A stretch of 64,000 bases of DNA from the human T2T-CHM13v2.0 reference genome, Homo sapiens. The stretch lies in contig CP068257.2 in assembly GCA_009914755.4 (NCBI GenBank), forward strand, positions 928,001 through 992,000. The letters run 5' to 3'. How positions within the stretch are numbered: position 1 is the stretch's first letter; every line of letters starts with the position of its first letter. Made by a program: the position numbers and the translations under genes. Positions 1-60,949 of this stretch are shown here, piece after piece. Under the pieces are notes generated by a model, which did no database searches, had not been told where the DNA came from, and saw only the letters and a list, made by a program, of their open reading frames with translations.

Positions 1-3000
1 GTCTAGGCTCTGCTTAAAGGGGCCTTGTCACATATCTCTGCACTGATCACCCAGGTGATGTAACTCTTGTCTAGCCTCTGCTTTCACGGCATATTGTGAC
101 ATATCTATGCACTGATCACCTTAGTGATGTAACAATTGTGTAGGCTCGGCCTACAGGGGAATATTGACATATCTCTGCACTGTTAACCGAGGTGATTTAA
201 CTCTTGTCTAGGCTGTGCCCACAGGGGGATTGAGACATATCTCTGCACTGATCCCGAGGTGATCCAACTGTTGCCTGGTCTCTGCCTACTGGGGACATCG
301 TGACATATCTCTGCACTGATCTCCCAGGTGCTGTAACTTTAGTCTAGGCTCTGGCTACACGGCATTGTGACATATCACTGCACTGATGACCCAGGTGATA
401 TAAATCTTGTCTAGGCTCTGCCTACAATGGCCTTGTGACATATCTCTGCACTGATCACCCAGGTGATATAACTCTTCTCTAGGATCTGACCACAGGGTGC
501 TTTGTGGCATTTCCCTGCAATGATCACCCAGGTGATATACCACTTGCCAAGGCTCTGCCTACAGGGGCATTGCAATGTATCTCTGCACTAATCACCTAGG
601 TCTTGTAACTCTTTTCTTCGATCTGCCCTCAGGGTGCTTTTTGACGTATCCCAGCAAGGATTACCCAGGTGATGTACCTCTCATCAAGGCTCTGCCTACA
701 GACACATTGCGATGTATCTCTGCACTGATCACCTAGGTCATGTAACTTTTGTCTAGGCTCTGCCTACGATGGCATTGTGACATATCTCTGCACTAATCAT
801 CCAAGTGATGTAACCCTTGTCTAGGATCTGCCTAAATTAACTTTGTGACATAACCCTGTACTGATCATCCGGGTGATAGGGCTTTTTTCTAGGCTCTGCC
901 TAAGGGGGCATTGTGACATATTTCTGCATTGATCACCCAGGTGGCGAACTCTTCTCTTGGATCTGCCTATGGGGGCATTGTGACAAATCTCTGCACTGAT
1001 CACCCAGGTGATGTAACTGTTGTGTAACCTCTGCCTACAGGGGAATTGTGAAAGATCTCGCCACTGATCACCCAAGTGATGTAACCATTGTCTAGGCTTT
1101 GCGTACAGGGGGCTTTGTGACATACCTTTGCACTGATCACCCAGGTGATGTAACACATCTAAGTTCGGCCTAAAGGAGCTTTGTGACATATCTCTGCACT
1201 GATCACTTAGGTGATGTAACACTTTTTTAACCACTGCCTACAGGGAATTTTGACAAATCTCTGCACTGATCACCTAGGTGATGTAACGCTTGTCTACTCT
1301 CTGTCCAACGGGGCATTTTGAAATATCTCTGCACTGATCACCCAGGTGATTCAACTCTTGACTAGGATCTGCCTACAGAGGTTATTGTGAAATATCTCTG
1401 CACTGATAAACTAGGTGGTGTAACCCTTATCCAAGCTCTGCCTACAGACTCGTTTTCACATATCCCTAAAGTGATGACAAAGGAGATGTAACTCTTGCCT
1501 AGGCTTTCCCTACGGGGGACATTGGACATATATCTGCACTGATCACCCAGGTGATACAACTCTTGCCTAGGCTTTCCCTACAGGGGACATTGTGACATAT
1601 CGCTTCAATGATCACTCATGTGATGCAACTCTTGCCTAGGCTTTGCCTACAGGGGACATTGTGACATATCTCTGCACTGATCTCCCAGGTGCTGTAACTT
1701 TAGACTAGACTCTGGCTACACGGCATTGTGACATATCACTGCACTGATCAACCAGGTGATATAACTCTTGTCTAGGCTCTGCCTACAGGGGGCTAGTGAC
1801 ATATCTCTGCACTGATCACCCAGGTGATATAACTCTTCTCTAGGATCTGCCTACAGGGTGCTTTGTGACATATCCCTGCAATGATCACCCAGGTGATCTA
1901 ACTCTGGTTTAAGCTCTGCCTAAAGGGGCATTGTGACAGATCTCTGCACTGATCACTCAGGTGATGAAACTATTGTCTAGGCTCTGCTTAAAGGGGCCTT
2001 GTCACATATCTCTGCAATGATCACCCAGGAGAGGTAACTCTTGTCTAGCCTCTGCTTCCGCGGCATATTGTGACATATCTATGCACTGATCACCTTAGTG
2101 ATGTAACACTTGTGTAGGCTCGGCCTACAGGGGAATATTGACATATCTCTGCACTGTTAACCGAGGTGACTTAACTCTTGTCTAGGCTGTGCCCACAGGG
2201 GGATTGAGACATATCTCTGCACTGATCCCGAGGTGATCCAACTGTTGCCTGGTCTCTGCCTACTGGGGACATTGTGACATATCTCTGCACTGATCTCCCA
2301 GGTGCTGTAAATATAGTCCAGGCTCTGGCTACACGGCATTGTGACATATCACTGCACTGATCACCCAGGTGATATAAATCTTGTCTAGGCTCTGCCTACA
2401 ATGGCCTTGTGACATATCTCTGCACTGATCACCCAGGTGATATAACTCTTCTCTAGGATCTGACCACAGGGTGCTTTGTGGCATTTCCCTGCAATGATCA
2501 CCCAGGTGATATACCACTCGCCAACGCTCTGCCTACAGGGGCATTGCAATTTATCTCTGCACTGTTCACCTAGGTCTTGTAACTCTTTTCTTCGATCTGC
2601 CCACAGGGTGATTTTTGACGTATCCCAGCAAGGATTACCCAGGTGATGTACCTCTCATCAAGGCTCTGCCTACAAGCACATTGCGATGTATCTCTGCACT
2701 GATCACCTAGGTCATGTAACTTTTGTCTAGGCTCTGCCTACGATGGCATTGTGACATATCTCTGCACTAATCATCCAAGTGATGTAACACTTCTCTAGGA
2801 TCTGCCTAAATTAACTTTGTGACATAACCCTGTACTGATCATCCAGGTGATGGGGCTTTTGTCTAGGCTCTGCCTAAGGGGGCATTGTGACATATTTCTG
2901 CATTGATCACCCAGGTGGCGAACTCTTCTCTTGGATCTGCCTATGGGGGCATTGTGACAAATCTCTGCACTGATCACCCAGGTGATGTAACTGTTGTGTA

Positions 3001-6000
3001 ACCTCTGCCTACAGGGGAATTGTGAGAGATCTCGCCACTGATCACCCAAGTGATGTAACCATTGTCTAGGCTTTGCGTACTGGGGGCTTTGTGACATACC
3101 TTTGCACTGATCACCCAGGTTATGTAACACATCTAAGTTCGGCCTAAAGGAGCTTTGTGACATATCTCTGCACTGATCACTTAGGTGATGTAACACTTTT
3201 ATAAGCACTGCCTACAGGAAATTTTGACAAATCTCTGCACTGATCACCTAGGTGATGTAACGCTTGTCTACCCTCTGTCCAACGGGGCATTGTGAAATAT
3301 CTCTGCACTGATCACCCAGGTGATTCAACTCTTGACTAGGATCTGCCTACAGAGGTTATTGTGAAATATCTCTGCACTGATAAACTAGGTGGTGTAACCC
3401 TTATCCAAGCTCTGCCTACAGGGGCGTTTTCACATATCCCTGAAGTGATGACAAAGGTGATGTAACTCTTGCCTAGGCTTTGCCTACAGGGGACATTGTG
3501 ACATATCGCTTCAATGATCACCCATTTGATGCAACTCTTGCCTAGGCTTTGCCTACAGGGGACATTGTGACATATCTCTGCACTGATCTCCCAGGTGCTG
3601 TAACTTTAGTCTAGACTCTGGCTACACGGCATTGTGACATATCACTGCACTGATCAACCAGGTGATATAACCCTTGTCTAGGCTCTGCCTACAGGGGGCT
3701 TGTGACATAGCTCTGCACTGATCACCCAGGTGATATAACTCTTCTCTAGGATCTGCCTACAGGGTGCTTTGTGACATATCCCTGCAATGATCACCCAGGT
3801 GATCTAACTCTGGTTTAAGCTCTGCCTAAAGGGGCATTGTGACAGATCTCTGCACTGATCACTCAGGTGATGTAACTATTGTCTAGGCTCTGCTTAAAGG
3901 GGCCTTGTCACATATCTCTGCAATGATCACCCAGGTGATGTAACTCTTGTCTAGCCTCTGCTTTCACGGCATATTGTGACATATCTATGCACTGATCACC
4001 TTAGTGATGTAACACTTGTGCAGGCTCGGCCTACAGGGTAATATTGACATATCCCTGCACTGTTAACCGAGGTGATTTAACTCTTGTCTAGGCTGTGCCC
4101 ACAGGGGGATTGAGACATATCTCTGCACTGATCCCGAGGTGATGCAACTGTTGCCTGGTCTCTGCCTACTGGGGACATTGTGAAATATCTCTGCACTGAT
4201 CTCCCAGGTGCTGTAACTTTAGTCTAGGCTCTGGCTACACGGCATTGTGACATATCACTGCACTGATCACCCAGGTGATATAAATCTTGTCTAGGCTCTG
4301 CCTACAATGGCCTTGTGACATATCTCTGCACTGATCACCCAGGTGATATAACTCTTCTCTAGGATCTGACCACAGGGTGCTTTGTGACATTTCCCTGCAA
4401 TGATCACTCAGGTGATATACCACTTGCCAAGGCTCTGCCTACAGGGGCATTGCAATGTATCTCTGCACTGATCACCTAGGTCTTGTAACTCTTTTCTTTG
4501 ATCTGCCCTCAGGGTGCTTTTTGACGTATCCCAGCAAGGATTACCCAGGTGATGTACCTCTCATCAAGGCTCTGCCTACAGGCACATTGCGATGTATCTC
4601 TTCACTGATCACCTAGGTCATGTAACTTTTGTCTAGGCTCTGCCTACGATTGCATTGTGACATATCTCTGCACTAATCATCCAAGTGATGTAACCCTTGT
4701 CTAGGATCTGCCTAAATTAACTTTGTGACGTAACCCTGTACTGATCATCCAGGTGATGGGGCTTTTGTCCAGGCTCTGCCTAAGGGGGCATTGTGACATA
4801 TTTCTGCATTGATAACCCAGGTGGCGAACTCTTCTCTTGGATCTGCCTATGGGGGCATTGTGACAAATCTCTGCACTGATCACCCAGGTGATGTAACTGT
4901 TGTGTAACCTCTGCCTACAGGGGAATTGTGAGAGATCTCGCCACTGATCACCCAAGTGATGTAACCATTGTCTAGGCTTTGCGTACAGGGGGCTTTGTGA
5001 CATACCTTTGCACTGATCACCCAGGTGATGTAACACATCTATGTTCGACCTAAAGGAGCTTTGTGACATATCTCTGCACTGATCACTTAGGTGATGTAAC
5101 ACTTTTATAAACACTGCCTACAGGGAATTTTGACAAATCTCTGCACTGATAACCTAGGTGATGTAACGCTTGTCTACCCTCTGTCCAACGGGGCATTGTG
5201 AAATATCTCTGCACTGATCACCCAGGTGATTCAACTCTTGACTAGGATCTGCCTACAGAGGTTATTGTGAAATATCTCTGCACTGATAAACTAGGTGGTG
5301 TAACACTTATCCAAGCTCTGCCTACAGGGGCGTTTTCACATATCCCTGAAGTGATGACAAAGGTGATGTTACTCTTGCCTAGGCTTTGCCTACAGGGGAC
5401 ATTGGATATATATCTGCACTGATCACCCAGGTGATGCAACTCTTGCCTAGGCTTTTCCTACAGGGGACATTGTGACATATCGCTTCAATGATCACCCATG
5501 TGATGCAACTCTTGCCTAGGCTTTGCCTACAGGGGACATTGTGACATATCTCTGCACTGATCTCCTAGGTGCTGTAACTTTAGTCTAGACTCTGGATACA
5601 CGGCATTGTGACATATCACTGCACTGATCAACCAGGTGATATAACTCTTGTCTAGGCTCTGCCTACAGGGGGCTTGTGACATAGCTCAGCACTGATCACG
5701 CAGGTGATATAACTCTTCTCTAGGATCTGCCTACAGGGTGCTTTGTGACATATCCCTGCAATGATCACCCAGGTGATCTAACTCTGGTTTAAGCTCTGCC
5801 TAAAGGGGCATTGTGACAGATCTCTGCACTGATCACTCAGGTGATGAAACTATTGTCTAGGCTCTGCTTAAAGGGGCCTTGTCACATATCTCTGCAATGA
5901 TCACCCAGGAGAGGTAACTCTTGTCTAGCCTCTGCTTCCGCGGCATATTGTGACATATCTATGCACTGATCACCTTAGTGATGTAACACTTGTGTAGGCT

Positions 6001-9000
6001 CGGCCTACAGGGGAATATTGACATATCTCTGCACTGTTAACCGAGGTGACTTAACTCTTGTCTAGGCTGTGCCCACAGGGGGATTGAGACATATCTCTGC
6101 ACTGATCCCGAGGTGATCCAACTGTTGCCTGGTCTCTGCCTACTGGGGACATTGTGACATATCTCTGCACTGATCTCCCAGGTGCTGTAAATATAGTCCA
6201 GGCTCTGGCTACACGGCATTGTGACATATCACTGCACTGATCACCCAGGTGATATAAATCTTGTCTAGGCTCTGCCTACAATGGCCTTGTGACATATCTC
6301 TGCACTGATCACCCAGGTGATATAACTCTTCTCTAGGATCTGACCACAGGGTGCTTTGTGGCATTTCCCTGCAATGATCACCCAGGTGATATACCACTCG
6401 CCAAGGCTCTGCCTACAGGGGCATTGCAATTTATCTCTGCACTGTTCACCTAGGTCTTGTAACTCTTTTCTTCGATCTGCCCACAGGGTGATTTTTGACG
6501 TATCCCAGCAAGGATTACCCAGGTGATGTACCTCTCATCAAGGCTCTGCCTACAAGCACATTGCGATGTATCTCTGCACTGATCACCTAGGTCATGTAAC
6601 TTTTGTCTAGGCTCTGCCTACGATGGCATTGTGACATATCTCTGCACTAATCATCCAAGTGATGTAACACTTGTCTAGGATCTTCCTAAATTAACTTTGT
6701 GACATAACCCTGTACTGATCATCCGGGTGATGGGGCTTTTGTCTAGGCTCTGCCTAAGGGGGCATTGTGACATATTTCTGCATTGATCACCCAGGTGGCG
6801 AACTCTTCTCTTGGATCTGCCTATGGGGGCATTGTGACAAATCTCTGCACTGATCACCCAGGTGATGTAACTGTTGTGTAACCTCTGCCTACAGGGGAAT
6901 TGTGAAAGATCTCGCCACTGATCACCCAAGTGATGTAACCATTGTCTAGGCTTTGCGTACAGGGGGCTTTGTGACATACCTTTGCACTGATCACCCAGGT
7001 GATGTAACACATCTAAGTTCGGCCTAAAGGAGCTTTGTGACATATCTCTGCACTGATCACTTAGGTGATGTAACACTTTTTTAACCACTGCCTACAGGGA
7101 ATTTTGACAAATCTCTGCACTGATCACCTAGGTGATGTAACGCTTGTCTACTCTCTGTCCAACGGGGCATTTTGAAATATCTCTGCACTGATCACCCAGG
7201 TGATTCAACTCTTGACTAGGATCTGCCTACAGAGGTTATTGTGAAATATCTCTGCACTGATAAACTAGGTGGTGTAACCCTTATCCAAGCTCTGCCTACA
7301 GACTCGTTTTCACATATCCCTAAAGTGATGACAAAGGAGATGTAACTCTTGCCTAGGCTTTCCCTACGGGGGACATTGGACATATATCTGCACTGATCAC
7401 CCAGGTGATACAACTCTTGCCTAGGCTTTCCCTACAGGGGACATTGTGACATATCGCTTCAATGATCACTCATGTGATGCAACTCTTGCCTAGGCTTTGC
7501 CTACAGGGGACATTGTGACATATCTCTGCACTGATCTCCCAGGTGCTGTAACTTTAGACTAGACTCTGGCTACACGGCATTGTGACATATCACTGCACTG
7601 ATCAACCAGGTGATATAACTCTTGTCTAGGCTCTGCCTACAGGGGGCTAGTGACATATCTCTGCACTGATCACCCAGGTGATATAACTCTTCTCTAGGAT
7701 CTGCCTACAGGGTGCTTTGTGACATATCCCTGCAATGATCACCCAGGTGATCTAACTCTGGTTTAAGCTCTGCCTAAAGGGGCATTGTGACAGATCTCTG
7801 CACTGATCACTCAGGTGATGAAACTATTGTCTAGGCTCTGCTTAAAGGGGCCTTGTCACATATCTCTGCAATGATCACCCAGGAGAGGTAACTCTTGTCT
7901 AGCCTCTGCTTCCGCGGCATATTGTGACATATCTATGCACTGATCACCTTAGTGATGTAACACTTGTGTAGGCTCGGCCTACAGGGGAATATTGACATAT
8001 CTCTGCACTGTTAACCGAGGTGACTTAACTCTTGTCTAGGCTGTGCCCACAGGGGGATTGAGACATATCTCTGCACTGATCCCGAGGTGATCCAACTGTT
8101 GCCTGGTCTCTGCCTACTGGGGACATTGTGACATATCTCTGCACTGATCTCCCAGGTGCTGTAAATATAGTCCAGGCTCTGGCTACACGGCATTGTGACA
8201 TATCACTGCACTGATCACCCAGGTGATATAAATCTTGTCTAGGCTCTGCCTACAATGGCCTTGTGACATATCTCTGCACTGATCACCCAGGTGATATAAC
8301 TCTTCTCTAGGATCTGACCACAGGGTGCTTTGTGGCATTTCCCTGCAATGATCACCCAGGTGATATACCACTCGCCAAGGCTCTGCCTACAGGGGCATTG
8401 CAATTTATCTCTGCACTGTTCACCTAGGTCTTGTAACTCTTTTCTTCGATCTGCCCACAGGGTGATTTTTGACGTATCCCAGCAAGGATTACCCAGGTGA
8501 TGTACCTCTCATCAAGGCTCTGCCTACAAGCACATTGCGATGTATCTCTGCACTGATCACCTAGGTCATGTAACTTTTGTCTAGGCTCTGCCTACGATGG
8601 CATTGTGACATATCTCTGCACTAATCATCCAAGTGATGTAACACTTGTCTAGGATCTGCCTAAATTAACTTTGTGACATAACCCTGTACTGATCATCCAG
8701 GTGATGGGGCTTTTGTCTAGGCTCTGCCTAAGGGGGCATTGTGACATATTTCTGCATTGATCACCCAGGTGGCGAACTCTTCTCTTGGATCTGCCTATGG
8801 GGGCATTGTGACAAATCTCTGCACTGATCACCCAGGTGATGTAACTGTTGTGTAACCTCTGCCTACAGGGGAATTGTGAGAGATCTCGCCACTGATCACC
8901 CAAGTGATGTAACCATTGTCTAGGCTTTGCGTACTGGGGGCTTTGTGACATACCTTTGCACTGATCACCCAGGTGATGTAACACATCTAAGTTCGGCCTA

Positions 9001-14700: not shown

Positions 14701-15299
14701 TTGTCTAGGTTTTGCGTACAGGGGGCTTTTTGACATACCTTTGCACTGATCACCCAGGTGATGTAACACATCTAAGTTCGGACTAAAGGAGCTTTGTGAC
14801 ATATCTCTGCACTGATCACTTAGGTGATGTAACACTTTTATAAGCACTGCCTACAGGGAATTTTGAAAAATCTCTGCACTGATCACCTAGGTGATGTAAC
14901 GCTTGTCTACCCTCTGTCCAACGGGGCATTGTGAAATATCTCTGCACTGATCACCCAGGTGATTCAACTCTTGACTAGGATCTGCCTACAGAGGTTATTG
15001 TGAAATATCTCTGCACTGATAACTAGGTGGTGTAACACTTATCCAAGCTCTGCCTACAGGGGCGTTTTCACATATCCCTGAAGTGATGACAAAGGTGATG
15101 TAACTCTTGCCTAGGCTTTGCCTACAGGGGACATTGGATATATATCTGCACTGATCACCCAGGTGATGCAACTCTTGCCTAGGATTTTCCTACAGGGGAC
15201 ATGGTGACATATCGCTTCAATGATCACCCATGTGATGCAACTCTTGCCTAGGCTTTGCCTACAGGGGACATTGTGACATATCTCTGCACTGATCTCCCA

Positions 15300-16560
15300 G
15301 GTGCTGTAACTTTAGTCTAGACTCTGGCTACACGGCATTGTGACATATCACTGCACTGATCAACCAGGTGATATAACTCTTGTCTAGGCTCTGCCTACAG
15401 GGGGCTTGTGACATAGCTCAGCACTGATCACCCAGATGATATAACTCTTCTCTAGGATCTGCCTACAGGGTGCTTTGTGACATATCCCTGCAATGATCAC
15501 CCAGGTGATCTAACTCTGGTTTAAGCTCTGCCTAAAGGGGCATTGTGACAGATCTCTGCACTGATCACTCAGGTGATGTAACTATTGTCTAGGCTCTGCT
15601 TAAAGGGGCCTTGTCACATATCTCTGCACTGATCACCCAGGTGATGTAACTCTTGTCTAGCCTCTGCTTTCACGGCATATTGTGACATATCTATGCACTG
15701 ATCACCTTAGTGATGTAACAATTGTGTAGGCTCGGCCTACAGGGGAATATTGACATATCTCTGCACTGTTAACCAAGGTGATTTAACTCTTGTCTAGGCT
15801 GTGCCCACAGGGGGATTGAGACATATCTCTGCACTGATCCCGAGGTGATCCAAATGTTGCCTGGTCTCTGCCTACTGGGGACATTGTGACATATCTCTGC
15901 ACTTATCTCCCAGGTGCTGTAACTTTAGTCTAGGCTCTGGCTCCACGGCATTGTGACATATCACTGCACTGATCACCCAGGTGATATAACCCTTGTCTAG
16001 GCTCTGCCTACAGGGGGCTTGTGACATAGCTCTGCACTGATCACCCAGGTGATATAACTCTTCTCTAGGATCTGCCTACAGGGTGCTTTGTGACATATCC
16101 CTGCAATGATCACCCAGGTGATCTAACTCTGGTTTAAGCTCTGCCTAAAGGGGCATTGTGACAGATCTCTGCACTGATCACTCAGGTGATGTAACTATTG
16201 TCTAGGCTCTGCTTAAAGGGGCCTTGTCACATATCTCTGCAACGATCACCCAGGTGATGTAACTCTTGTCTAGCCTCTGCTTTCACGGCATATTGTGACA
16301 TATCTATGCACTGATCACCTTAGTGATGTAACACTTGTGCAGGCTCGGCCTACAGGGTAATATTGACATATCTCTGCACTGTTAACCGAGGTGATTTAAC
16401 TCTTGTCTAGGCTGTGCCCACAGGGGGATTGAGACATATCTCTGCACTGATCCCGAGGTGATGCAACTGTTGCCTGGTCTCTGCCTACTGGGGACATTGT
16501 GAAATATCTCTGCACTGATCTCCCAGGTGCTGTAACTTTAGTCTAGGCTCTGGCTACACG
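15300..16560. repeat. Internal 612-bp (9-monomer) tandem duplication within one HOR copy; this HOR copy is 2,586 bp.
   Basis: Spacing from 13968 to 16554 is 2586 = 1974+612. The segment starting at ~15301 ('gtgctgtaactttagtctagactctggctacacggcattgtgacatatcactgcactgatcaaccaggtgatataac...') is repeated from ~15901. Confidence 0.7.
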
Positions 16561-25500: not shown

Positions 25501-28500
25501 CCAGGTGATGCAACTCTTGCCTAGGCTTTGCCTACAGGGGACATTGTGACATATCTCTGCACTGATCTCCCAGGTGCTGTAACATTAGTCTAGACTCTGG
25601 CTACACGGCATTGTGACATATCACTGCACTGATCAACCAGGTGATATAACTCTTGTCTAGGCTCTGCCTACAGGGGTCTTGTGACATAGCTCTGCACTGA
25701 TCACCCAGGTGATATAACTCTTCTCTAGGATCTGCCTACAGGGTGCTTTGTGACATATCCCTGCAATGATCACCCAGGTGATCTAACTCTGGTTTAAGCT
25801 CTGCCTAAAGGGGCATTGTGACAGATCTCTGCACTGATCACTCAGGTGATGTAACTATTGTCTAGGCTCTGCTTAAAGGGGCCTTGTCACATATCTCTGC
25901 AATGATCACCCAGGTGATGTAACTCTTGTCTAGCCTCTGCTTTCACGGCATATAGTGACATATCTATGCACTGATCACCTTAGTGATGTAACACTTGTGT
26001 AGGCTCGGCCTACAGGGGAATATTGACATATCTCTGCACTGTTAACCGAGGTGATTTAACTCTTGTCTAGGCTGTGCCCACAGGGGGATTGAGACATATC
26101 TCTGCACTGATCCCGAGGTGATCCAACTGTTGCCTGGTCTCTGCCTACTGGGGACATTGTGACATATCTCTGCACTGATCTCCCAGGTGCTGTAACTTTA
26201 GTCTAGGCTCTGGCTACACGGCATTGTGACATATCACTGCACTGATCACCCAGGTGATATAAATCTTGTCTAGGCTCTGCCTACAATGGCCTTGTGACAT
26301 ATCTCTGCACTGATCACCCAGGTGATATAACTCTTCTCTAGGATCTGACCACAGGGTGCTTTGTGACATTTCCCTGCAATGATCACCCAGGTGATATACC
26401 ACTTGCCAAGGCTCTGCCTACAGGGGCATTGCAATGTATCTCTGCACTGATCACCTAGGTCTTGTAACTCTTTTCTAGGATCTGCCCACAGGGTGATTTT
26501 TGACGTATCCCAGCAAGGATTACCCAGGTGATGTACCTCTCATCAAGGCTCTGCCTACAGGCACATTGCGATGTATCTCTGCACTGATCACCTGGGTCAT
26601 GTAACTTTTGTCTAGGCTCTGCCTACGATGGCATTGTGACATATCTCTGCACTAATCATCCAAGTGATGTAAACAATGTCTAGGATCTGCCTAAATTAAC
26701 TTTGTGACATAATCCTGTACTGATCATCCAGGTGATGGGGCTTTTGTCTAGGCTCTGCCTAAGGGTGCATTGTGACATATTTCTGCATTGATCACCCAGG
26801 TGGCGAACTCTTCTCTTGGATCTGCCTATGGGGGCATTGTGAGAAATCTCTGCACTGATCACCCAGGTGATGTAACTGTTGTGTAACCTCTGCCTACAGG
26901 GGAATTGTGAGAGATCTCTCCACTGATCACCCAAGTGATGTTACCATTGTCTAGGCTTTGCGTACAGGGGGCTTTGTGACATACCTTTGCACTGATCACC
27001 CAGGTGATGTAACATATCTAAGTTCGGCCTAAAGGAGCTTTGTGACATATCTCTGCACTGATCACTTAGGTGATGTAACACTTTTATAAGCACTGCCTAC
27101 AGGGAATTTTGACAAATCTCTGCACTCATCACCTAGGTGATGTAACGCTTGTCTACCCTCTGTCCAACGGGGCATTGTGAAATATCTCTGCACTGATCAC
27201 CCTGGTGATTCAACTCTTGACTAGTATCTGCCTACAGAGGTTATTGTGAAATATCTCTGCATTGATAAACTAGGTGTTGTAACCCTTGTCCAAGCTCTGC
27301 CTATAGGGACGTTTTCACATATCCCTGAAGTGATGACAAAGGTGATGTAACTCTTGCCTAGGCTTTTCCTACAGGGGACATTGTGACATATCGCTTCAAT
27401 GATCACCCATGTGATGCAACTCTTGCCTAGGCTTTGCCTACAGGGGACATTGTGACATATCTCTCCACTGATCTCCCATGTGCTGTAACTTTAGTCTAGG
27501 CTCTGGCTACATGGCACTGTGACATATCACTGCACTGATCAACCAGGTGATATAACACTTCTATAGGCTCTGCCTACAGGGGGCTTGTGACATACCTCTG
27601 CACTGATCACACAGGTGATATAACTCCTCTCTAGGATCTACCTACTGGGTGCTTGGTGACATATCCCTGCACTGATCACCCAGGTGATCTAACTCTCGTC
27701 TGAGCTCTGCCTAAAGGGCATTGTGACAGATCTCTGCACTGATCACCCAGGTGATGTAACTCTTGTCTAGGCTCTCCTTGCAGGGCATATTGTGACATAT
27801 CTATGCACTGATCACCTTAGTGATGTAACACTTGTGTATGCTCGGCCTACAGGGAAATCTTGACATATCTCTGCACTGTTAACCGAGGTGATTTAACTCT
27901 TGCCTAGGCTGTGCCCACAGGGGGATTGAGACATATCTCCGCACTGATCCCGAGGTGATCCAACTCTTGCCTGGTCTCTGCCTACTGGGGACATTGTGAC
28001 ATATCTCTGCACTGATCAACCAGGTGATATAACTCTTGTCTAGGCTCTGCCTACAATGGTCTTGTGACATACCTCTGCACTGACCACCCAGGTGATATAA
28101 CTCTTCTCTAGGATCTGACCACAGGGTGCTTTGTGACATATCCCTGCAATGATCACCCAGGTGATATACCACTTGCCAAGGTTCTGCCTACTGGGGCATT
28201 GCAATGTATCTCTGCACTAATCACCTTGGTCTTGTAAATCTTTTCTAGAATCTGCCCACAGGGTGCTTTGTGACGTATCCCAGCAAGGATTACCCAGGTG
28301 ATGTACCTCTCATCAAGGCTCTGCCTACAGGCACATTGCGATGTATCTCTGCACTGATCATATAGGTCATGTAACTTTTGTCTAGGCTCTGCCTACGATA
28401 GCATTGTGACATATGTCTGCACTAATCATCCAAGTGATGTAACACTTGTCTAGGATCTGCCTAAATTAACTTTGTGACATAACCCTGTACTGATCATCCA

Positions 28501-31500
28501 GGTGATGGGGCTTTTCTCTAGGCTCTGTCTAAGGGGGCATTGTGACATATTTCTGCATTGATCACCCACGTGGCGAACTCTTCTCTTGGATCTGCCTATG
28601 GGGGCATTGTGACAAATCTCTGCACTGATCACCCAGGTGATGTAACTGTTGTGTAACCTCTGCCTACAGGGAAATTGTGAGAGATCTCTCCACTGATCAC
28701 CCAAGTGATGTAACCATTGTCTAGGCTTGGCTTACAGGGGGATTTGTGACATACCTTTGCACTGATCACCCAGGTGATGTAACACATCTAAGTTCGGCCT
28801 AAAGGAGCTTTGTGACATATCTCTGCACTGATCACTTAGGTGATGTAACACTTTTATAAGCACTGCCTACAGGGAATTTTGACAAATCTCTGCACTGATC
28901 ACCTAAGTGATGTAACGCTCGTCTACCCTCTGTCCAACGGGGCATTGTGAAATATCTCTGCACTGATCACCCAGGTGATTCAACTCTTGACTAGGATCTG
29001 CCTACAGAGGTTATTGTGAAATATCTCTGCACTGATAAACTAGGTGGTGTATCCCTTATCCAAGCTCTGCCTACAGGGGCGTTTTCACATATCCCTGAAG
29101 TGATGACAAAGGTGATGTAACTCTTGCCTAGGCTTTGCCTACAGGGGACATTGGACATATATCTGCACTGATCACCCATGTGATGTAACTCTTGCCTAGG
29201 CTTTGCCTACAGGGGACATTGTGACATATCTCTGCACTGATCTCCCAGGTGCTGTAACTTTAGTCTAGACTCTGGCTACACGGCATTGTGACATATCACT
29301 GCACTGATCAACCAGGTGATATAACTCTTGTCTAGGCTCTGCCTACAGGGGGCTTGTGACATATCTCTGCACTGATCACCCAGGTGATATAACTCTTCTC
29401 TAGGATCTGCCTACAGGGTGCTTTGTGACATATCCCTGCAATGATCACCCAGGTGATCTAACTCTGGTTTAAGCTCTGCCTAAAGGGGCATTGTGACAGA
29501 TCTCTGCACTGATCACTCAGGTGATGTAACTATTGTCTAGGCTCTGCTTAAAGGGGCCTTGTCACATATCTCTGCACTGATCACCCAGGTGATGTAACTC
29601 TTGTCTAGCCTCTGCTTTCACGGCATATTGTGACATATCTATGCACTGATCACCTTAGTGATGTAACACTTGTGTAGGCTCGGCCTACGGGGGAACATTG
29701 ACATATCTCTGCACTGTTAACCGAGGTGATTTAACTCTTGTCTAGGCTGTGCCCACAGGGGGATTGAGACATATCTCTGCACTGATCCCGAGGTGATCCA
29801 ACTTTTGCCTGGTCTCTGCCTACTGGGGACATTGTGACATATCTCTGCATTGATCTCCCAGGTGCTGTAACTTTAGTCTAGGCTCTGACTACACGTCATT
29901 GTGACATATCACTGCACTGATCACCCAGGTGATATAAATCTTGTCTAGGCTCTGCCTACAATGGCCTTGTGACATATCTCTGCACTGATCACCCAGGTGA
30001 TATAACTCTTCTCTAGGATCTGACCACAGGGTGCTTTGTGACATTTCCCTGCAATGATCACCCAGGTGATATACCACTTGCCAAGGCTCTGCCTACAGGG
30101 GCATTGCAATGTATCTCTGCACTGATCACCTAGGTATTGTAACTCTTTTCTAGGATCTGCCCACTGGGTGCTTTTTGACGTATCCCAGCAAGGATTACGC
30201 AGGTGATGTACCTCTCATCAAGGCTCTGCCTACAGGCACATTGCGATGTATCTCTGCACTGATCACCTGGGTCATGTAACTTTTGTCTAGGCTCTGCCTA
30301 CGATGGCATTGTGACATATCTCTGCACTAATCATCCAAGTGATGTAACCAATGTCTAGTATCTGCCTAAATTAACTTTGTGACATAACCCTGTACTGATC
30401 ATCCAGGTGATGGGGCTTTTGTCTAGGCTCTGCCTAAGAGTGCATTGTGACATATTTCTGCATTGATCACCCAGGTGGCGAACTCTTCTCTTGGATCTGC
30501 CTATGGGGGCATTGTGAGAAATCTCTGCACTGCTCACCCAGGTGATGTAACTGTTGTGTAACCTCTGCCTACAGGGGAATTGTGAGAGATCTCTCCACTG
30601 ATCACCCAAGTGATGTTACCATTGTCTAGGCTTTGCGTACAGGGGGCTTTGTGACATACCTTTGCACTGATCACCCAGTTGATGTAACACATCTAAGTTC
30701 GGCCTAAAGGAGCTTTGTGACATATCTCTGCACTGATCACTTAGGTGATGTAACACTTTTATAAGCACTGCCTACAGGGAATTTTGACAAATCTCTGCAC
30801 TGATCACCTAGGTGATGTAACGCTTGTCTACCCTCTGTCCAACGGGGCATTGTGAAATATCTCTGCACTGATCACCCTGGTGATTCAACTCTTGACTAGT
30901 ATCTGCCTACAGAGGTTATTGTGAAATATCTCTGCATTGATAAACTAGGTGTTGTAACCCTTGTCCAAGCTCTGCCTATAGGGACGTTTTCACATATCCC
31001 TGAACTGATGACAAAGGTGATGTAACTATTGCCTAGGCTTTGCCTACAGGGGATATTGGACATATATCTGCACTGATCACTCAGGTGATGCAACTCTTGC
31101 CTAGGCTTTGCCTACAGGGGACATTGTGACATATCTCTCCACTGATCTCCCATGTGCTGTAACTTTAGTCTAGGCTCTGGCTACATGGCATTGTGACATA
31201 TCACTGCACTGATCAACCAGGTGATATAACACTTCTATAGGCTCTGCCTACAGGGGGCTTGTGACATACCTCTGCACTGATCACACAGGTGATATAACTC
31301 CTCTCTAGGATCTACCTACTGGGTGCTTGGTGACATATCCCTGCACTGATCACCCAGGTGATCTAACTCTCGTCTGAGCTCTGCCTAAAGGGCATTGTGA
31401 CAGATCTCTGCACTGATCACCCAGGTGATGTAACTCTTGTCTAGGCTCTCCTTGCAGGGCATATTGTGACATATCTGTGCACTGATCACCTTAGTGATGT

Positions 31501-34500
31501 AACACTTGTGTAGGCTCGGCCTACAGGGAAATCTTGACATATCTCTGCACTGTTAACCGAGGTGATTTAACTCTTGCCTAGGCTGTGCCCACAGGGGGAT
31601 TGAGACATATCTCCGCACTGATCCCGAGGTGATCTAACTCTTGCCTGGTCTCTGCCTACTGGGGACATTGTGACATATCTCTGCACTGATCAACCAGGTG
31701 ATATAGCTCTTGTCTAGGCTCTGCCTACAATGGTCGTGTGACATATCTCTGCACTGATCACCCAGGTGATATAACTCTTCTCTAGCATCTGACCACAGGG
31801 TGCTTTGTGACATATCCCTGCAATGATCACCCAGGTGATATACCACTTGCCAAGGTTCTGCCTACTGGGGCATTGCAATGTATCTCTGCACTAATCACCT
31901 TGGTCTTGTAAATCTTTTCTAGAATCTGCCCACAGGGTGCTTTGTGACGTATCCCAGCAAGGATTACCCAGGTGATGTACCTCTCATCAAGGCTCTGCCT
32001 ACAGGCACATTGCAATGTTTCTCTGCACTGATCACCTAGGTCATGTAACTTTTGTCTAGGCTCTCTACGATGGCATTGCGACATATCTCTGCACTGATCA
32101 TCCAAGTGATGTAACCCTTGTCTAGGATCTAGCTAAATTAACTTTGTGACATAATCCTGTACTGATCATCCAGGTGATGGGCCTTTTGTCTAGGCTCTGC
32201 CTAAGGGGGCATTGTGACATATTTCTGCATTGATCACCCAGGTGGCAAACTCTTCTCTTGGATCTGCCTATGGGGGCATTGTGACAAATCTCTGCACTGA
32301 TCACCCAGGTGATGTAACTGTTGTGTAACCTCTGCCTACAGGGGAATTGTGAGAGATCTCGCCACTGATCACCCAAGTGATGTAACCATTGTCTAGGCTT
32401 TGCGTACAGGGGCTTTGTGACATACCTTTGCACTGATCACCCTGGTGATGTAACACATCTAAGTTCGGCCTAAAGGAGCTTTGTGACATATCTCTGCACT
32501 GATCACTTAGGTGATGTAACACTTTTATAAGCACGGCCTACAGGGAATTTTGACAAATCTCTTCACTGATCACCTAGGTGATGTAACTCTTGTCTACCCT
32601 CTGTCCAACGGGGCATTGTGAAATATCTCTGCAATGATCAACCAGGTGATTCAACCCTTGACTAGGATCTGCCTATGGAGGTTATTGTGAAATATCTCTG
32701 CACTGATAAACTAGGTGGTGTAACCCTTGTCCAAGCCCTGCCTACAGGGGCGTTTTCACATATCCCTGAACTGATGACAAAGGTGATGTAACTCTTGCCT
32801 AGGCTTTGTCTACAGGGGATATTGGACATATATTTGCAGTGATCACCCAGGTGATGCAACTGTTGCCTGGGCTTTGCCTACAGGGCACATTGTGACATAT
32901 CTCTTCAATGATTACCCATGTGATGCAACTCTTGCCTAGGCTTTGCCTACAGGGGACATTGTGACATATCTCTGCACTGATCTCCCAAGTGCTGTAACTT
33001 TAGTCTAGGCTCTGGCTACACGGCATTGTGATATATCACTGCACTGATCACCCAGGCGATATAACTCTTGTCTAGGCTCTGCCTACAATGGTCTTGTGAC
33101 ACATCTCTGCACTGATCACCCAGGTGATATAACTCTTCTCTAGGATGTGACCACAGGGTGCTTTGTGACATATCCCTGCACTGATCACCCAGGTGATCTA
33201 ACTCTGGTCTAAGCTCTGCCTAAAGGGGCATTGTGACAGATCTCTGCACTGATCACTCAGGTGATGTAACTGTTGTCTAGACTCTGCTTAAAGGGGCCTT
33301 GTCACATATCTCTTCACTGATCACCCAGGTGATGTAACTCTTGTCTAGGCTCTGCTCCCAGGGAATATTGTGACATATCTATGCACTGACCACCTTAGTG
33401 ATGTAACACTTGTGTAGGCGCGGCCTATAGGGGAATCTTGAAATATCTCTGCACTGTTAACCGAGGTGATTTAACTCTTGTCTAGGCTGTGCCCACAGGG
33501 GGATTGAGACATATCTCTGCACTGATCCCGAGGTGATCCAACTCTTGCCTGGTCTCTGCCTACTGGGGACATTGTGACATATCTCTGCACTGAACTCCCA
33601 GTTGCTGTAACTTTATTCTAGGCTCTGGCTACGCGGCATTGTGACATATCACTGCACTGATCACCCAGGTGATATAACTCTTGTCTAGGCTCTGCCTACA
33701 ATGGTCTTGTGACATAACTCTGCACTGATCACCCAGGTTATATAACTCTTCTCTAGGATCTGACCACAGGGGGCTTTGTGACATATCCCTGCAATGATCA
33801 CCCTGGTGATATATCACTTGCCAAGGCTCTGCCTACAGGGGCATTGCAATGTATCTCTGCACTGATCACCTAGGTCTTGTAACTCTTTTCTAGGATCTGC
33901 CTACAGGGTGCTTTGTGACGTATCCCAGCAAGGATTACCCAGGTAATGTACCTCTCATCAAGGCTCTGCCTACAGGCACATTGCGATGTTTCTCTGCACT
34001 GATCACCTATGTCATGTAACATTTGTCTGGGCTCTGCCTACGATGGCATTGTGACATATCTCTGCACTAATCATCCAAGTGATGTAACTCCTGTCTAGGA
34101 TCTGCCTAAACTAACTCTGTGACATAACCCTGTACTGATCATCCAGGTGATGGGGCTTTTGTCTAGGCTCTGCCTAAGGGGGCATTGTGACATATTTCTG
34201 CATTGATCACCCAGGTTGCGAACTCTTCTCTTGGATCTGCCTATGGGGGCATTGTGACAAATCTCTGCACTGATCACCCAGGTGATGTAACTGTTGTGTA
34301 ACCTCTGCCTACAGGGGAATTGTGAGAGATCTCGCCACTGATCACCCAAGTGATGTAACCATTGTCTAGGCTTTGCGTACAGGGGGCTTTGTGACATACC
34401 TTTGCACTGATCACCCAGTTGATGTAACACATCTAAGTTCGGCCTAAAGGAGCTTTGTGACAAACCTCTGCACAGATCACTTAGGTGATGTAATACTTTT

Positions 34501-34559
34501 ATAAGCACTGCCTACAGGGAATTTTGGCAAATCTCTGCACTGATCATCTAGGTGATGTA

Positions 34560-37300
34560 ACTCTTTTCTAGGATATGCCTACAGAGGGCGTTGTGACATC
34601 ACTCTGCACGGTTCACCCGGGTTATGTAACCCTGGTCTAGGCTCTGCCTATGGGGCATTGTGACTTATCTCTGCACTGATCACCCCGGAGATGTGACTCT
34701 TTTCTAAGCTCTTCCTAGAGGGACATTTGGACATATCTCTGCACTGATTGCTGAGATGCTGTAAAACTTGTCTACGCTTTGCCTACAGTGGGATTTATGA
34801 CATATCTCTGCACTGATCACCCAGGTGATGTAACTAGTGTCTAGGCTCTGCTTACAGGGAGTATTGTGAGATACCTCTGCACTGACCACACAGGTGATGT
34901 AGCTCTTGTCTCGTCTCTGCCTACAGGGGCATTTTCACATATCACTGCACTAATCACCGAGATGATGTAACTCTTTCATAGGCTTCGCCAACAGGGGGCA
35001 TTGAGACATACCTCTGCACTGATCACCGAGGTGATGCAACTCTTGTCTGGGATCTGCTTACAGGGGGCATTGTGACATATCTCTGCCCGGATCACCCAGG
35101 TGATGTAACTCTTGTCTAGGCAATGCCTACTGGAGTCAATGTGACATATCTCCGCACTGATCACCCAGGTGATGTCACTTTTGTCAAGGATATGGCTACA
35201 GGGACATTGTGACATGTCACTGCACTGATCACACAGCTGATGTAACTCTTGTCTAGGCTCTGGCTACAGGTGGCTTGTGACACATATCTGCATTGATCAC
35301 CCAGGTGATGTAACCCTTTTCTAGGCTCTGCCAAAAGCGGACATTGTGACATAAATCTGCAATGATCACCCAGGTGTTGGGACTCTTGTCTATGCTCTAC
35401 CTATAGGGGCATTGTGACATATCTCTGCCGTGATCACGCAGGTGATGTAACTCTTCTCTATATGTGCCTACTGGCGGCATGGTGGCATAATTCTGCACTG
35501 ATCAACCAGCTGATGGATCCTTGTCTTGGATCTGCGTCTGGGGGCATAGTGACATATCTCTGCACTGATCACTCATGTGATGTAACACTTGTCTAAGCTG
35601 CGACAAAAGGGGAATTGTGACAGATGTCTCCAGTGATCACCGAGGTGATGTAACAATTTTCTAGGATTTGTCTACAGGGGGCTTTGTGCTATATCTTTGC
35701 ACTGATCACCCAGGAGACGTAACTCTTGTCTAGGCCTGGCCTACAGGGGCTTTGTGACATATTTCTGCACTGATCACCAAGGTGATGTAACACTTGTTTA
35801 GGCTCTGCCTGCATGGGCTTTGTGTCCTATATCTGTACTGATCACCCATGTGTTGTAACTCTTGTCTAGGCTCCACCTACAGGGGCTGTTGTGACGTATC
35901 TCTGCACTGATCACCCAGGTGATGTAACTCTTGTCTAGGCTCCACCTACAGTGGGTATTGTGACGTAACTCTACAGAGATCACCCAGGTTATGTAACTCT
36001 TGTCCACTCTCTGCCTACAGGGTCATTGTGAACTGTCTCTGCACTGTTCACCCAGGTGATGGGACTCTTCTCTATACTCTGCCTGGAGGGGGATTTGTGA
36101 CATATCTCTGCACTGATCACTCAGGTGATGGAAGTCTTGTCTAGGCTCTGTCTATGCGCGCATTGTGTCAAATATCTGCACTGATCACCCAGGTGATGTA
36201 ACTCTTGTCTAGGCTCTGTCTACAGGGATTTTTGTCACATATGACTGCACTGATCACCGAGCTGATGTAAGCCTTGTATGGGCTTTGCATATAGAAGGCT
36301 TTATGACATACCTATGCACTGATCTCTGAGGTGATGCAACTCTTGTCTAGGCACTGCGTACAGGGGACATTGGTACATATCTCTGCACTGATCACCCAGG
36401 TGATGGACTCTTGTCTTAGACCTGCCTACGTGGACATTGTGACACATCTCTGAACTGATCAACCAAGTGATGAAACTCTTGTCTAGGCTCTGCCTACATG
36501 GGCTTTGCGACACATCTCTGCACTGTTCACCCTGGGGAGGGAACTCTTGTCTACGCTCTGCCTACAGGAGGCTTTATGACTTATACCTGCACTGATAACC
36601 TAGTTGATGTAACACTTGTCTAGGCTCTGCCTACATGGGAATTCTCACAAATCTCTGCACTGATCACCCAGGTGATGTAACTCCTCTCTAGGTTCAGCCT
36701 ACAGGAGTGTTTTGACATACCTCTGCACTGATCACCCAGGTGATGTAACCCTTGTCTAAGCTCTGCCTACAGGGGCATTGTGACAGATCTCTCCACTGCT
36801 CACCCAGGTGATGTAACAATTGTCTGGGCTTTGCCTACAGTGGGCTTTGTGATATACATTTCCACTGATCAAACAGGTGATGTAACCCTTGTCAAGGTTC
36901 TGCTTACAGGGGCTTTGTGACATATCTCTGCACTGATCACCCCAGGGAGGAAACACTTGTCTACACTCTGCCTCCTGGAGGCTTTATGACTTATCCCTGC
37001 ACTTATCACTAGGTGATGTAACACTTGTCTAGGCTCTGTCTACACAGCAATTTTCACATATCTCTACAATGATCACCTAAGTGATGTAACCCTTGTCTAG
37101 GTTCAGCCTACTGGGGATTTCTGACATACCTAAGCACTGATCACCTAGGTGACATAAATCATTTCCAGGCTTTTTTTACAGGGAACATTTTGAAATATCT
37201 CTGCACTGATCACCCAAATGATGCAAATCTTCTCTAGGCTCCTCAGGGAGTGGCATTGTGACATATTTATGAACCAATCATCCAGGAGGTGTAACTGTTC
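34560..37300. repeat. Diverged beta-satellite block (older, roughly monomeric) 3' of DUX4L copy 1. Homologous to the blocks at 55,660-58,205, and in part to 42,700-44,450 and 47,2xx-50,340.
   Basis: The monomer periodicity continues, but identity to the HOR array breaks at ~34,555-34,580. The segment 'ggcgttgtgacatcactctgcacggttcacccgggttatgtaac' matches 55,690 and 62,975. The spurious ORF 'MFPPWGDQCRDMSQSPCKQNLDKGYITCLISGNVYHKA' recurs at 36756, 43840, 49797 and 57664. Confidence 0.8.

Positions 37301-38021: not shown

Positions 38022-39439
<1,418 letters not shown>

Positions 39440-40059: not shown

Positions 40060-42634
<2,575 letters not shown>

Positions 42635-44449: not shown

Positions 44450-44450
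<1 letters not shown>
42635..44450. repeat. Diverged beta-satellite block (distal part) 3' of DUX4L copy 2.
   Basis: Homologous to 35,870-37,300 and 56,790-58,205. For example, 'ggatttgtgacatatctctgcactgatcacccaggtgatggaagtcttgtctaggctct' appears at 42,96x, 36,08x and 57,00x. Confidence 0.8.
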
Positions 44451-47224
<2,774 letters not shown>

Positions 47225-47225
<1 letters not shown>

Positions 47226-50200: not shown

Positions 50201-50349
50201 CATTTCCAGGTTTTTGTACAAGGGACATTGTGATATATCTCTACTCTGATCACCCAAATGATGCAAATCTTCTCTAGGCTCTGCAGGGAGGGGGCATTGT
50301 GACATATTTCTGAACCGATCATCGAGGAGATGTAACTATTCTCCAGGCT

Positions 50350-50350: not shown

Positions 50351-53124
<2,774 letters not shown>

Positions 53125-53125
<1 letters not shown>

Positions 53126-58215: not shown

Positions 58216-60949
<2,734 letters not shown>

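What the first reader, a model, noticed from the sequence alone, without database searches (positions are those of the whole stretch)
1..34560. Three-level beta-satellite architecture: 68-bp monomer, ~1,974-bp 29-mer HOR, 5,854-bp three-HOR super-repeat
The array is far more regular than random satellite. Identical spurious ORFs recur at exact spacings of 1974, 1906 and 1905 bp. In addition, three distinguishable HOR variants (A, B, C) occur in the order A-B-C-A-B-C. The two A-B-C blocks (1-5854 and 5855-11708) are about 99.5% identical, while A, B and C differ from each other by a few percent. This pattern points to very recent amplification of a multi-HOR unit by unequal crossing-over. Arrays like this are hot-spots of structural polymorphism.
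Basis: seen in the sequence. Interest (0 to 1): 0.55.

Follow-up and report, generated by a model that had tools for sequence, protein, structure and literature searches.

The report
Beta-satellite 29-monomer HOR array, primate
This is an ordinary primate beta-satellite array of 68-bp monomers in a ~2-kb 29-monomer higher-order repeat, and the claimed third level is one recent ~4.6-kb internal duplication, not a regular super-repeat.

Summary
The two lower levels are real. A 68-bp satellite runs from 1 to 37,296 (548 copies, 75% matches). From 1 to 34,634 it forms a 29-monomer, 1,974-bp higher-order repeat (HOR). Monomers within a unit are about 76% alike; unit copies are 95-99.7% alike.

The third level is overstated. 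Unit lengths in monomers run 29, 28, 29, 29, 28, 28, 29, 29, 9, 29, 28, 29, 28, 28, 28, 26, 28, 27, then a partial unit. The 5,854-bp lag is the best match only for 888-5455 against 6742-11309 (4,568 bp, 8 mismatches, 99.82%). The stated blocks are 95.6% identical without gaps. Unit 4 is a B-head/A-tail recombinant. Unit 6 is one monomer shorter than unit 3. From unit 7 on, the A-B-C order does not continue. Other long duplications have different lags (3,675, 4,560, 7,759 and 12,319 bp).

The pattern fits unequal crossing-over and gene conversion in a homogenising array, with identity falling toward the right edge.

To the right lies a known type of composite: four 2.8-kb D4Z4-like elements with DUX4 pseudogenes, alternating with diverged beta satellite, plus one Alu. 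Each composite unit holds one roughly 83-90% copy of the same monomer order. This suggests the array grew in place from one such stretch.

This is a known kind of sequence and of low interest.

The parts
1..34634 (+). Beta-satellite HOR array, cut by the left end of the window. Canonical unit is 29 monomers (1,974 bp). Unit starts: 1, 1975, 3881, 5855, 7829, 9735, 11640, 13614, 15587, 16200, 18174, 20076, 22050, 23955, 25860, 27765, 29535, 31439, 33275. Monomer counts: 29, 28, 29, 29, 28, 28, 29, 29, 9, 29, 28, 29, 28, 28, 28, 26, 28, 27, 20.
   Evidence: Monomers within a unit average 76.5% identity (range 60-94). Units are 94.9-99.3% identical to the consensus. All copies are on the + strand.
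888..5455 (+). First copy of the recent multi-HOR duplication: tail of unit 1, unit 2, and most of unit 3.
   Evidence: 4,568 bp at lag 5854 with 8 mismatches (99.82%), including a 1,637-bp perfect tract at 888-2524. One search gives 592-5502 at 99.53% with looser edges.
6742..11309 (+). Second copy of that duplication: tail of unit 4, unit 5, and most of unit 6.
   Evidence: Unit 4 has a B-type head (identical to units 2 and 5 up to about column 900) and an A-type tail. The tract ends at the m23/m24 deletion junction of unit 6.
15587..16199 (+). 9-monomer HOR fragment (m1-6 then m27-29), which produces the 2,586-bp spacing.
   Evidence: m5-8 resemble m25-28 at 88-94%, so an exchange between m6/7 and m26/27 explains the junction (inference).
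25860..33274 (+). Older two-unit duplication. Pairing at lag 3,675/3,674 bp: 25,860-27,764 with 29,535-31,438, and 27,765-29,534 with 31,439-33,274. The second unit of each pair lacks m1 and m6.
   Evidence: lag 3675/3674 is the best partner at about 98.6%; monomer maps; units 14/16 are 98.4% and 15/17 are 96.3% identical.
34635..37299 (+). Diverged monomeric beta satellite with no HOR order, forming the tail before the first GC-rich element.
   Evidence: 76-90% identity to the nearest HOR monomer and no consecutive labels; the last 1.5 kb is 91-92% identical to the segments preceding the other three GC-rich elements.
37300..40103 (-). LSau / D4Z4-like element 1 with a degenerate DUX4-like frame.
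   Evidence: GC 64%, CpG o/e 0.54; tblastn with DUX4 (query written from memory) covers residues 1-424 across two frames.
44445..47261 (-). LSau / D4Z4-like element 2.
   Evidence: the ORF at 45601-46053 (-) matches homeodomain 2 of DUX4 (PDB 6e8c, E = 9.6e-12). Also.
50341..53164 (-). LSau / D4Z4-like element 3. The DUX4-like frame is continuous but carries a premature stop in homeodomain 1.
58207..60993 (-). LSau / D4Z4-like element 4.
   Evidence: The four elements are about 86% identical pairwise.
42325..42634 (-). Alu element with a poly-A tail (read as poly-T on +), flanked by the 14-bp target-site duplication ATCTCTGCACTGTT. One copy starts at 42313 and runs into the poly-T; the other is at 42635-42648.
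   Evidence: sequence; two Metazoa_SRP arms on the minus strand, E = 6e-16 and 1.6e-11.
40716..42211 (+). Single degenerate HOR-like stretch inside a composite unit (labels 1, 1, 3-6, 27, 8, 11-20, 22, 25, 28, 27).
   Evidence: It is about 90% identical to the HOR consensus.
47880..48835 (+). Partial HOR-like stretch (labels 29, 1, 1, 3-6, 9, 7, 21, 1, 23, 24, 27).
53776..55680 (+). HOR-like stretch (labels 29, 1-6, 27, 27, 28, 11, 1, 28, 11, 12, 1, 14-21, 1, 25, 27, 27).
   Evidence: It is about 90% identical to the HOR consensus.
61606..62962 (+). HOR-like stretch (labels 29, 1, 27, 3-7, 28, 15-22, 25, 7, 27). A second copy starts at 63,444 (29, 1-6, 27) and is cut by the window end.
   Evidence: Region 63511-63998 is 93.4% identical to the first 488 bp of unit 1.

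Best explanation
The region is a simple beta-satellite (Sau3A family) HOR array in a primate genome, next to a beta-satellite/LSau (D4Z4-like) composite zone.

Shown:
- 68-bp monomers are ordered into a 29-monomer, 1,974-bp HOR.
- At least 18 copies lie head to tail on one strand.
- The copies are a mosaic of shared variant blocks.

Inferred mechanism:
- The array is kept homogeneous and reshuffled by unequal sister-chromatid or homologue exchange and by gene conversion between misaligned HOR copies.
- Misalignment by whole units produces multi-unit duplications.
- Misalignment by monomers at similar neighbouring or paralogous monomers produces the length variants. Exchange at m23/m24 made two independent 28-mers. 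Exchange at m6-7/m26-27 made the 9-monomer fragment. Loss of m1 and m6 made the 26- and 27-mers.
- Exchange is less effective at the array edge, so edge copies are older and more diverged.

Further inference: the array arose in place by amplification of a ~2-kb stretch of one composite unit. Every neighbouring composite unit keeps one diverged copy of the same monomer order in the same position relative to its LSau element.

No coding or RNA function is implied. The recurring ORF is a by-product of periodicity.
For: - Periods and unit map.
- Mosaic site patterns: unit 4 is a B head plus an A tail; unit 6 is C-type up to the deletion junction; the head of unit 1 shares variants with unit 11.
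- Perfect tracts at three different lags: 1,637 bp at 5854, 983 bp at 1974 and 928 bp at 7759.
- Four long tracts of at least 98% identity at lags 5854, 4560, 12319 and 7759.
- Two distinct 28-mer junctions.
- Paralogy of m5-8 with m25-28 at 88-94% fits the 9-monomer fragment.
- Edge gradient: 98-99.3%, then 97.5, 97.5, 96.9, 95.7 and 94.9%.
- Family features: 68 bp, GC 46.8%, GATC in 429 of 509 monomers.
- In-place origin: 55 in-order monomer pairs in the composite blocks against 7.2 +/- 2.5 by permutation. The pre-LSau tails are 90-92% identical, including the one after the HOR array. The HOR-like stretches are about 90% identical to the HOR consensus in two units and 83-86% in the other two, against 79% for a control.
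Against: - Crossing-over and gene conversion cannot be told apart from one haplotype.
- The direction of descent is not resolved. The array could derive from a composite unit, or the composite units could each have captured one HOR copy. Identities among the composite stretches (82-91%) overlap their identity to the HOR consensus (83-90%).
- Assembly error in a satellite cannot be excluded without reads.
- Membership in beta satellite was not tested against a reference sequence, because no tool holds one.
- The left end of the array lies outside the window.
Confidence: 0.85

Rival explanations
1. A true periodic third tier: a 3-HOR, 5,854-bp super-repeat (A-B-C)n. The window would show only its decaying right end, with the regular part lying to the left.
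For: Units 1/4, 2/5 and 3/6 are reciprocal nearest relatives. Lag 5854 is the second most frequent 24-mer distance. Lag-3 excess among units 1-13 has a permutation P of 0.02. The array is cut at window position 1, and its most homogeneous part is on the left.
Against: Fewer than two copies are present. Positions 1-887 match at only 97.3% at this lag. Pairs 4-7 and 5-8 are 96.9% and 97.8% identical, and there is no lag-6 signal (P = 0.14 for lags 3 and 6). After unit 6 the order is C, D, C, D, D, B'. Other duplications have different lags.
Confidence: 0.08
2. The A-B-C/A-B-C similarity comes from a long gene-conversion tract (about 4.6 kb copied to a site three units away), not from a duplication that added three units to the array.
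For: The near-identical tract covers only 4.6-4.9 kb of the 5.85-kb period. Both ends fall inside units. Nearby perfect patches at other lags look like conversion patches: 983 bp at lag 1974 and 928 bp at lag 7759.
Against: A single unequal crossover followed by later patches overwriting part of the duplicate explains the same data. The tract carries the 28-mer deletion of unit 2 into unit 5, which fits either process. One haplotype cannot separate them.
Confidence: 0.3
3. Assembly artefact: near-identical multi-kb repeats created or collapsed by an assembler in a satellite region.
For: Satellite arrays are prone to such errors. No read data are available here.
Against: The two copies differ at 8 scattered sites and by a structured recombinant junction. 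Unit variants form a coherent mosaic and a smooth edge gradient. An intact Alu with a target-site duplication and four orderly composite units lie alongside.
Confidence: 0.05

Closest known systems
Human beta satellite (Sau3A family) HOR arrays, such as pB3 (chr 9) and pB4 (acrocentric short arms); 'simple' beta-satellite arrays of T2T-CHM13
   Same: 68-bp monomer, about 47% GC, a Sau3A site in most monomers, multimeric HOR organisation, and tandem head-to-tail arrays tens of kb long (literature).
   Different: I could not check whether this 29-monomer, 1,974-bp HOR is the same as pB3, pB4 or any catalogued HOR. No reference sequence or human genome is held by the tools, and Waye & Willard 1989 could not be read.
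LSAU-BSAT (beta-composite) arrays with divergent D4Z4/DUX4 copies on acrocentric short arms and pericentric chr 1
   Same: The right half of the window has four 2.8-kb GC-rich elements with full-length degenerate DUX4-like frames, alternating with 2-5 kb of beta satellite. The size fits the common ~3.1-kb 5'-truncated divergent D4Z4 (PMC10620044).
   Different: The finding itself (1-34,634) is a simple array with no LSau. I did not find in the papers I could read that each composite unit holds one diverged copy of the HOR's monomer order.
Alpha-satellite HOR arrays: unequal-crossover homogenisation, HOR structural variants, and more diverged array edges
   Same: Same logic: diverged monomers, near-identical HOR copies, variants differing by whole monomers, multi-HOR duplications, and falling identity at the edge.
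   Different: A different, unrelated monomer (68 bp rather than 171 bp). No link to centromere function is known or tested here.

Membership tests
Beta satellite (Sau3A family) | Tandem repeat with a basic unit of about 68 bp | tested here: met
   TRF gives period 68 and 548 copies over 1-37,296. Monomer lengths are 66-70 bp with a mode of 68.
Beta satellite (Sau3A family) | A Sau3A (GATC) site in nearly every unit | tested here: met
   429 of 509 HOR monomers (84%) and 664 of 925 labelled segments window-wide contain GATC. That second denominator includes non-satellite segments. The definition comes from Meneveri 1985 as cited in 10.1101/589531.
Beta satellite (Sau3A family) | Moderately GC-rich composition (about 47-52%) | tested here: met
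   GC is 46.3-47.3% across 1-34 kb. The literature gives 47-50% and 52%.
Beta satellite (Sau3A family) | Sequence similarity to a reference beta-satellite consensus (e.g. Repbase/Dfam BSR) | not testable with these tools
   No reference sequence is held. A literature search for the conserved core found no printed sequence. My recognition of the motif is from memory only.
Beta satellite (Sau3A family) | Primate genome; association with LSau/D4Z4-like elements in composite arrays | tested here: met
   An Alu (a dimeric 7SL-derived element) with a target-site duplication. DUX4 homeodomain match at E = 9.6e-12. Four LSau-like elements interleaved with the same satellite.
Higher-order repeat (HOR) array | Monomers within a unit are much more diverged than corresponding monomers between units | tested here: met
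   Identity is 76.5% (range 60-94) within a unit and 95-99.7% between units.
Higher-order repeat (HOR) array | The same monomer order is repeated in successive units | tested here: met
   The order 1..29 is kept in 18 successive units, apart from whole-monomer deletions and one 9-monomer fragment.
Super-HOR (a regular third tier of periodicity) | Three or more successive periods of the multi-HOR block, with identity raised at every multiple of the block length | tested here: not met
   Fewer than two copies are present: 4.6-4.9 kb of a 5.85-kb period. There is no lag-6 signal (P = 0.14) and the order is not continued after unit 6. The upstream flank is outside the window.
D4Z4 / LSau elements (neighbouring sequence only) | A GC-rich ~3-kb unit containing a DUX4 double-homeobox frame | tested here: met
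   The elements are 2.79-2.82 kb with 64% GC. Homeodomain 2 matches PDB DUX4. Alignment to DUX4 recalled from memory is full-length at 72-84% aa identity, with stops and frameshifts.

The most novel reading that the evidence does not exclude
The window may catch a beta-satellite HOR array beside its own source. On this reading, a ~2-kb stretch of about 29 monomers inside one LSau/beta-satellite composite unit was amplified in place into an array of at least 34.6 kb. Roughly 83-90% identical single copies of the same monomer order remain at the same position in four neighbouring composite units. If so, the birth and layered growth of a satellite HOR from a composite repeat could be traced step by step across haplotypes and apes. 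A less likely variant is that a regular 5,854-bp super-HOR continues upstream of the window.
Probability: 0.45. Interest if true: 0.4.

Novelty: already known. Interest (0 to 1): 0.2.

Why it matters
The practical value is for annotation. The region should be recorded as a beta-satellite 29-monomer HOR array with 28-, 27-, 26- and 9-monomer variants, not as a three-tier repeat. The recurring 137-aa ORF should not be called a gene.

Arrays of this kind lie in regions prone to copy-number change and misassembly: in human, the acrocentric short arms or pericentric chr 1. A precise unit map with diagnostic variant blocks can help validate assemblies and compare haplotypes.

The one observation with some wider value is that the neighbouring LSau/beta-satellite composite units each keep one diverged copy of the HOR's monomer order. 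This gives a testable picture of how the HOR array arose.

Tried and rejected
- Global base autocorrelation was smeared by indels. I replaced it with k-mer lag histograms and a tile-wise best-partner map.
- Self-megablast at 98% or higher gave only the self-hit, because HSPs extended through the whole array at lower identity.
- A brute-force tract search timed out once and was vectorised.
- My first satellite/non-satellite split used too lax a threshold and labelled the whole window as satellite. It was redone at 70% or higher.
- Rfam at gathering thresholds found nothing in 34-64 kb. The Alu showed up only in a permissive scan.
- The C-terminal DUX4-like peptide had no meaningful PDB match.
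- An exact look-up of three 137-aa ORF variants and one DUX4-like ORF in the 15-billion-protein collection found nothing.
- A literature search for the monomer core sequence found nothing. Waye & Willard 1989 is not held.
- I considered the large protein homology searches and the metagenome and genome scans and did not run them. Those collections cover prokaryotes, viruses and metagenomes, so they could not place a primate satellite.
- Coding potential for the recurring ORF was rejected. It exists only because a stop-free frame repeats with the HOR, and its sequence is built from satellite monomers.


Full report
**1. What is in the sequence**

The window is satellite DNA from position 1. TRF reports a single array at 1-37,296 with a 68-bp period, 548 copies and 75% matches. 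Its consensus is GTCTAGGCTCTGCCTACAGGGGCATTGTGACATATCTCTGCACTGATCACCCAGGTGATGTAACTCTT, which is identical to the consensus I derived from 509 monomers. GC content is 46-47% throughout 1-34 kb. CpG is strongly depleted, at an observed/expected ratio of 0.16-0.20. All copies are on the + strand.

**2. The second level is real**

Aligning the first 1,974 bp across the window gives in-register copies at 88-99% identity, against about 76% out of register. Cutting unit 1 into monomers gives 29 monomers of 66-69 bp. They are on average 76.5% identical to one another (range 60-94). Whole units are 95-99.7% identical. That contrast is the definition of a higher-order repeat (HOR).

Monomers 5-8 resemble monomers 25-28 at 88-94%. 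This explains the secondary lags of 1,361 and 613 bp.

**3. Unit map**

I labelled every monomer with its nearest type. The order 1 to 29 is kept from 1 to 34,634:

| Unit range | Monomers | Note |
|---|---|---|
| 1-1974 | 29 | |
| 1975-3880 | 28 | |
| 3881-5854 | 29 | |
| 5855-7828 | 29 | |
| 7829-9734 | 28 | |
| 9735-11639 | 28 | |
| 11640-13613 | 29 | |
| 13614-15586 | 29 | |
| 15587-16199 | 9 | m1-6, then m27-29 |
| 16200-18173 | 29 | |
| 18174-20075 | 28 | |
| 20076-22049 | 29 | |
| 22050-23954 | 28 | |
| 23955-25859 | 28 | |
| 25860-27764 | 28 | |
| 27765-29534 | 26 | lacks m1, m6, m24 |
| 29535-31438 | 28 | |
| 31439-33274 | 27 | lacks m1, m6 |
| 33275-34634 | 20 | m1-19, then m28 |

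After 34,634 the order is lost. Region 34,635-37,299 is diverged monomeric satellite, 76-90% identical to any HOR monomer.

The 28-mers are of two kinds. Three of them (1975-3880, 7829-9734, 25860-27764) keep the core of m24. The others keep the core of m23. These are two independent one-monomer deletions between neighbouring monomers that are 87% alike.

**4. The ORF observation**

A 137-aa minus-strand ORF recurs at 821, 2795, 4701, 6675, 8649, 10555, 12460 and 14434. The copies differ by a few residues. The ORF is a by-product of periodicity. The exact sequences are absent from the large protein collection.

**5. The third level**

The 5,854-bp lag exists. It is the second most common 24-mer distance. 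Units 1/4, 2/5 and 3/6 are reciprocal nearest relatives at 98.8, 99.7 and 99.5%. However, the stated blocks 1-5854 and 5855-11708 are only 95.6% identical without gaps.

The near-identical tract is 888-5455 against 6742-11309. It is 4,568 bp long with 8 mismatches, or 99.82%. With looser edges it is 592-5502 at 99.53%. Positions 1-887 carry 24 mismatches.

Site patterns at 75 informative columns show why:
- Unit 4 has a head identical to the B units (2 and 5) up to about column 900, and a tail identical to unit 1.
- Unit 6 is C-type only up to the m23/m24 junction. There it loses a monomer and switches type, so block 2 ends at 11,639.

After unit 6 the order is C, D (followed by the 9-monomer fragment), C, D, D, B', and so on. 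Mean identity by unit lag is raised at lag 3 only, through pairs 1-4, 2-5, 3-6 and 6-9. Pairs 4-7 and 5-8 are 96.9% and 97.8%. The permutation P is 0.02 for lag 3 alone in units 1-13, and 0.14 for lags 3 and 6 together.

Other long tracts have other lags:
- 11306-14513 against 15866-19073 (4,560 bp lag, 99.0%).
- 3500-5939 against 11259-13698 (7,759 bp lag).
- 3545-5994 against 15864-18313 (12,319 bp lag).
- An older two-unit duplication, 25,860-29,534 against 29,535-33,274 (3,675 bp lag, about 98.6%).
- Perfect patches at three different lags: 1,637 bp at 5854, 983 bp at 1974 and 928 bp at 7759.

The third level is therefore one recent event among several. It is not a regular tier.

**6. Mechanism**

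Shown:
- In-register junctions.
- Whole-monomer length variants sited at similar monomers.
- Mosaic variant blocks.
- A smooth fall in identity to the consensus toward the right edge: 98-99.3% for the units up to 25,859, then 97.5, 97.5, 96.9, 95.7 and 94.9%.

Inferred: repeated unequal exchange and gene conversion between misaligned HOR copies, as long accepted for satellite arrays. Crossing-over and conversion cannot be separated from one haplotype.

**7. Surroundings**

To the right, four GC-rich elements alternate with 1.8-5.0 kb blocks of diverged satellite. They lie at 37,300-40,103, 44,445-47,261, 50,341-53,164 and 58,207-60,993. Each is about 2.8 kb with 64% GC and a CpG observed/expected ratio of about 0.55.

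An ORF in element 2 matches homeodomain 2 of DUX4 (PDB 6e8c, E = 9.6e-12). A DUX4 sequence written from memory aligns full-length to all four elements on the minus strand at 72-84% identity. That query is a lead, not a reference. The frames carry stops or frameshifts.

An Alu sits at 42,325-42,634 on the minus strand, with a 14-bp target-site duplication. It shows two 7SL-related arms at E = 6e-16 and 1.6e-11.

The window is therefore primate. Its right half is the known LSAU-BSAT composite type, found mainly on acrocentric short arms and pericentric chr 1. The species and chromosome could not be determined with the tools available.

**8. An observation beyond the finding**

Each composite unit contains one diverged copy of the same monomer order as the HOR:
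- There are 55 consecutive in-order monomer pairs, against 7.2 +/- 2.5 in 5,000 label permutations (maximum 16).
- Two of the stretches are about 90% identical to the HOR consensus and the other two 83-86%, against 79% for a non-HOR control.
- The 1.5 kb before each LSau element is 90-92% identical in all four cases, including the segment that follows the HOR array.

The array thus occupies the slot where other composite units have a single HOR-like stretch. The simplest reading (inference) is amplification in place of about 2 kb of one composite unit. The opposite direction, in which composite units captured a HOR copy, is not excluded.

**9. Comparison with what is known, and verdict**

Beta satellite has been known to form HORs since 1989: pB3 on chr 9 and pB4 on the acrocentrics. 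T2T work separates simple arrays from LSau-composite arrays.

The defining features I could test are all met: 68-bp unit, a Sau3A site in 84% of monomers, about 47% GC, primate context and LSau association. Similarity to a reference consensus could not be tested. The test for a regular super-HOR was not met.

The finding is a correct recognition of an ordinary, already-known kind of repeat, with an over-read third tier. Interest is low.

Noticed in passing
window 40716-42211, 47880-48835, 53776-55680, 61606-62962, 63444-64000: Each LSau/beta-satellite composite unit contains one diverged copy of the same monomer order as the 29-mer HOR. It sits at a fixed position after about 9 'leader' monomers. 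There are 55 in-order monomer pairs against 7.2 expected by permutation. Identity to the HOR consensus is about 90% in two units and 83-86% in two others.
   Followed up: partly
window 42325-42634 (minus strand); flanks starting at 42313 and at 42635-42648: An Alu element is inserted into beta satellite, with a poly-A tail and a 14-bp target-site duplication (ATCTCTGCACTGTT). CpG o/e is 0.80, higher than in its surroundings. This marks the window as primate.
   Followed up: yes
window 37300-40103, 44445-47261, 50341-53164, 58207-60993 (minus strand): Four 2.8-kb D4Z4/LSau-like elements, about 86% identical pairwise, each hold a full-length but disrupted DUX4-like frame. Element 3 is in a single frame with a stop in homeodomain 1 and two stops near the C-terminus.
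   Followed up: partly
window 15587-16199: A 9-monomer HOR fragment (m1-6 joined to m27-29) lies between two full units. The same 6-to-27 junction label recurs in several composite-unit stretches and at 63,444-64,000. Because m7 and m27 are 94% alike, some of these labels may simply be ambiguous.
   Followed up: partly
window 1-800: The head of unit 1 is not part of the 5,854-bp duplication. Its best partners are about 20 and 26 kb away (lags 20,075 and 25,859 bp, about 99%), and it shares variants with the head of the unit at 20,076. This points to long-range exchange within the array.
   Followed up: no
window 63511-63998: At the right end of the window, a second HOR-like copy begins directly after the first one in that block. 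It is 93.4% identical to the start of unit 1, with individual monomers at 99-100%. It may be the start of another small HOR array beyond the window.
   Followed up: no
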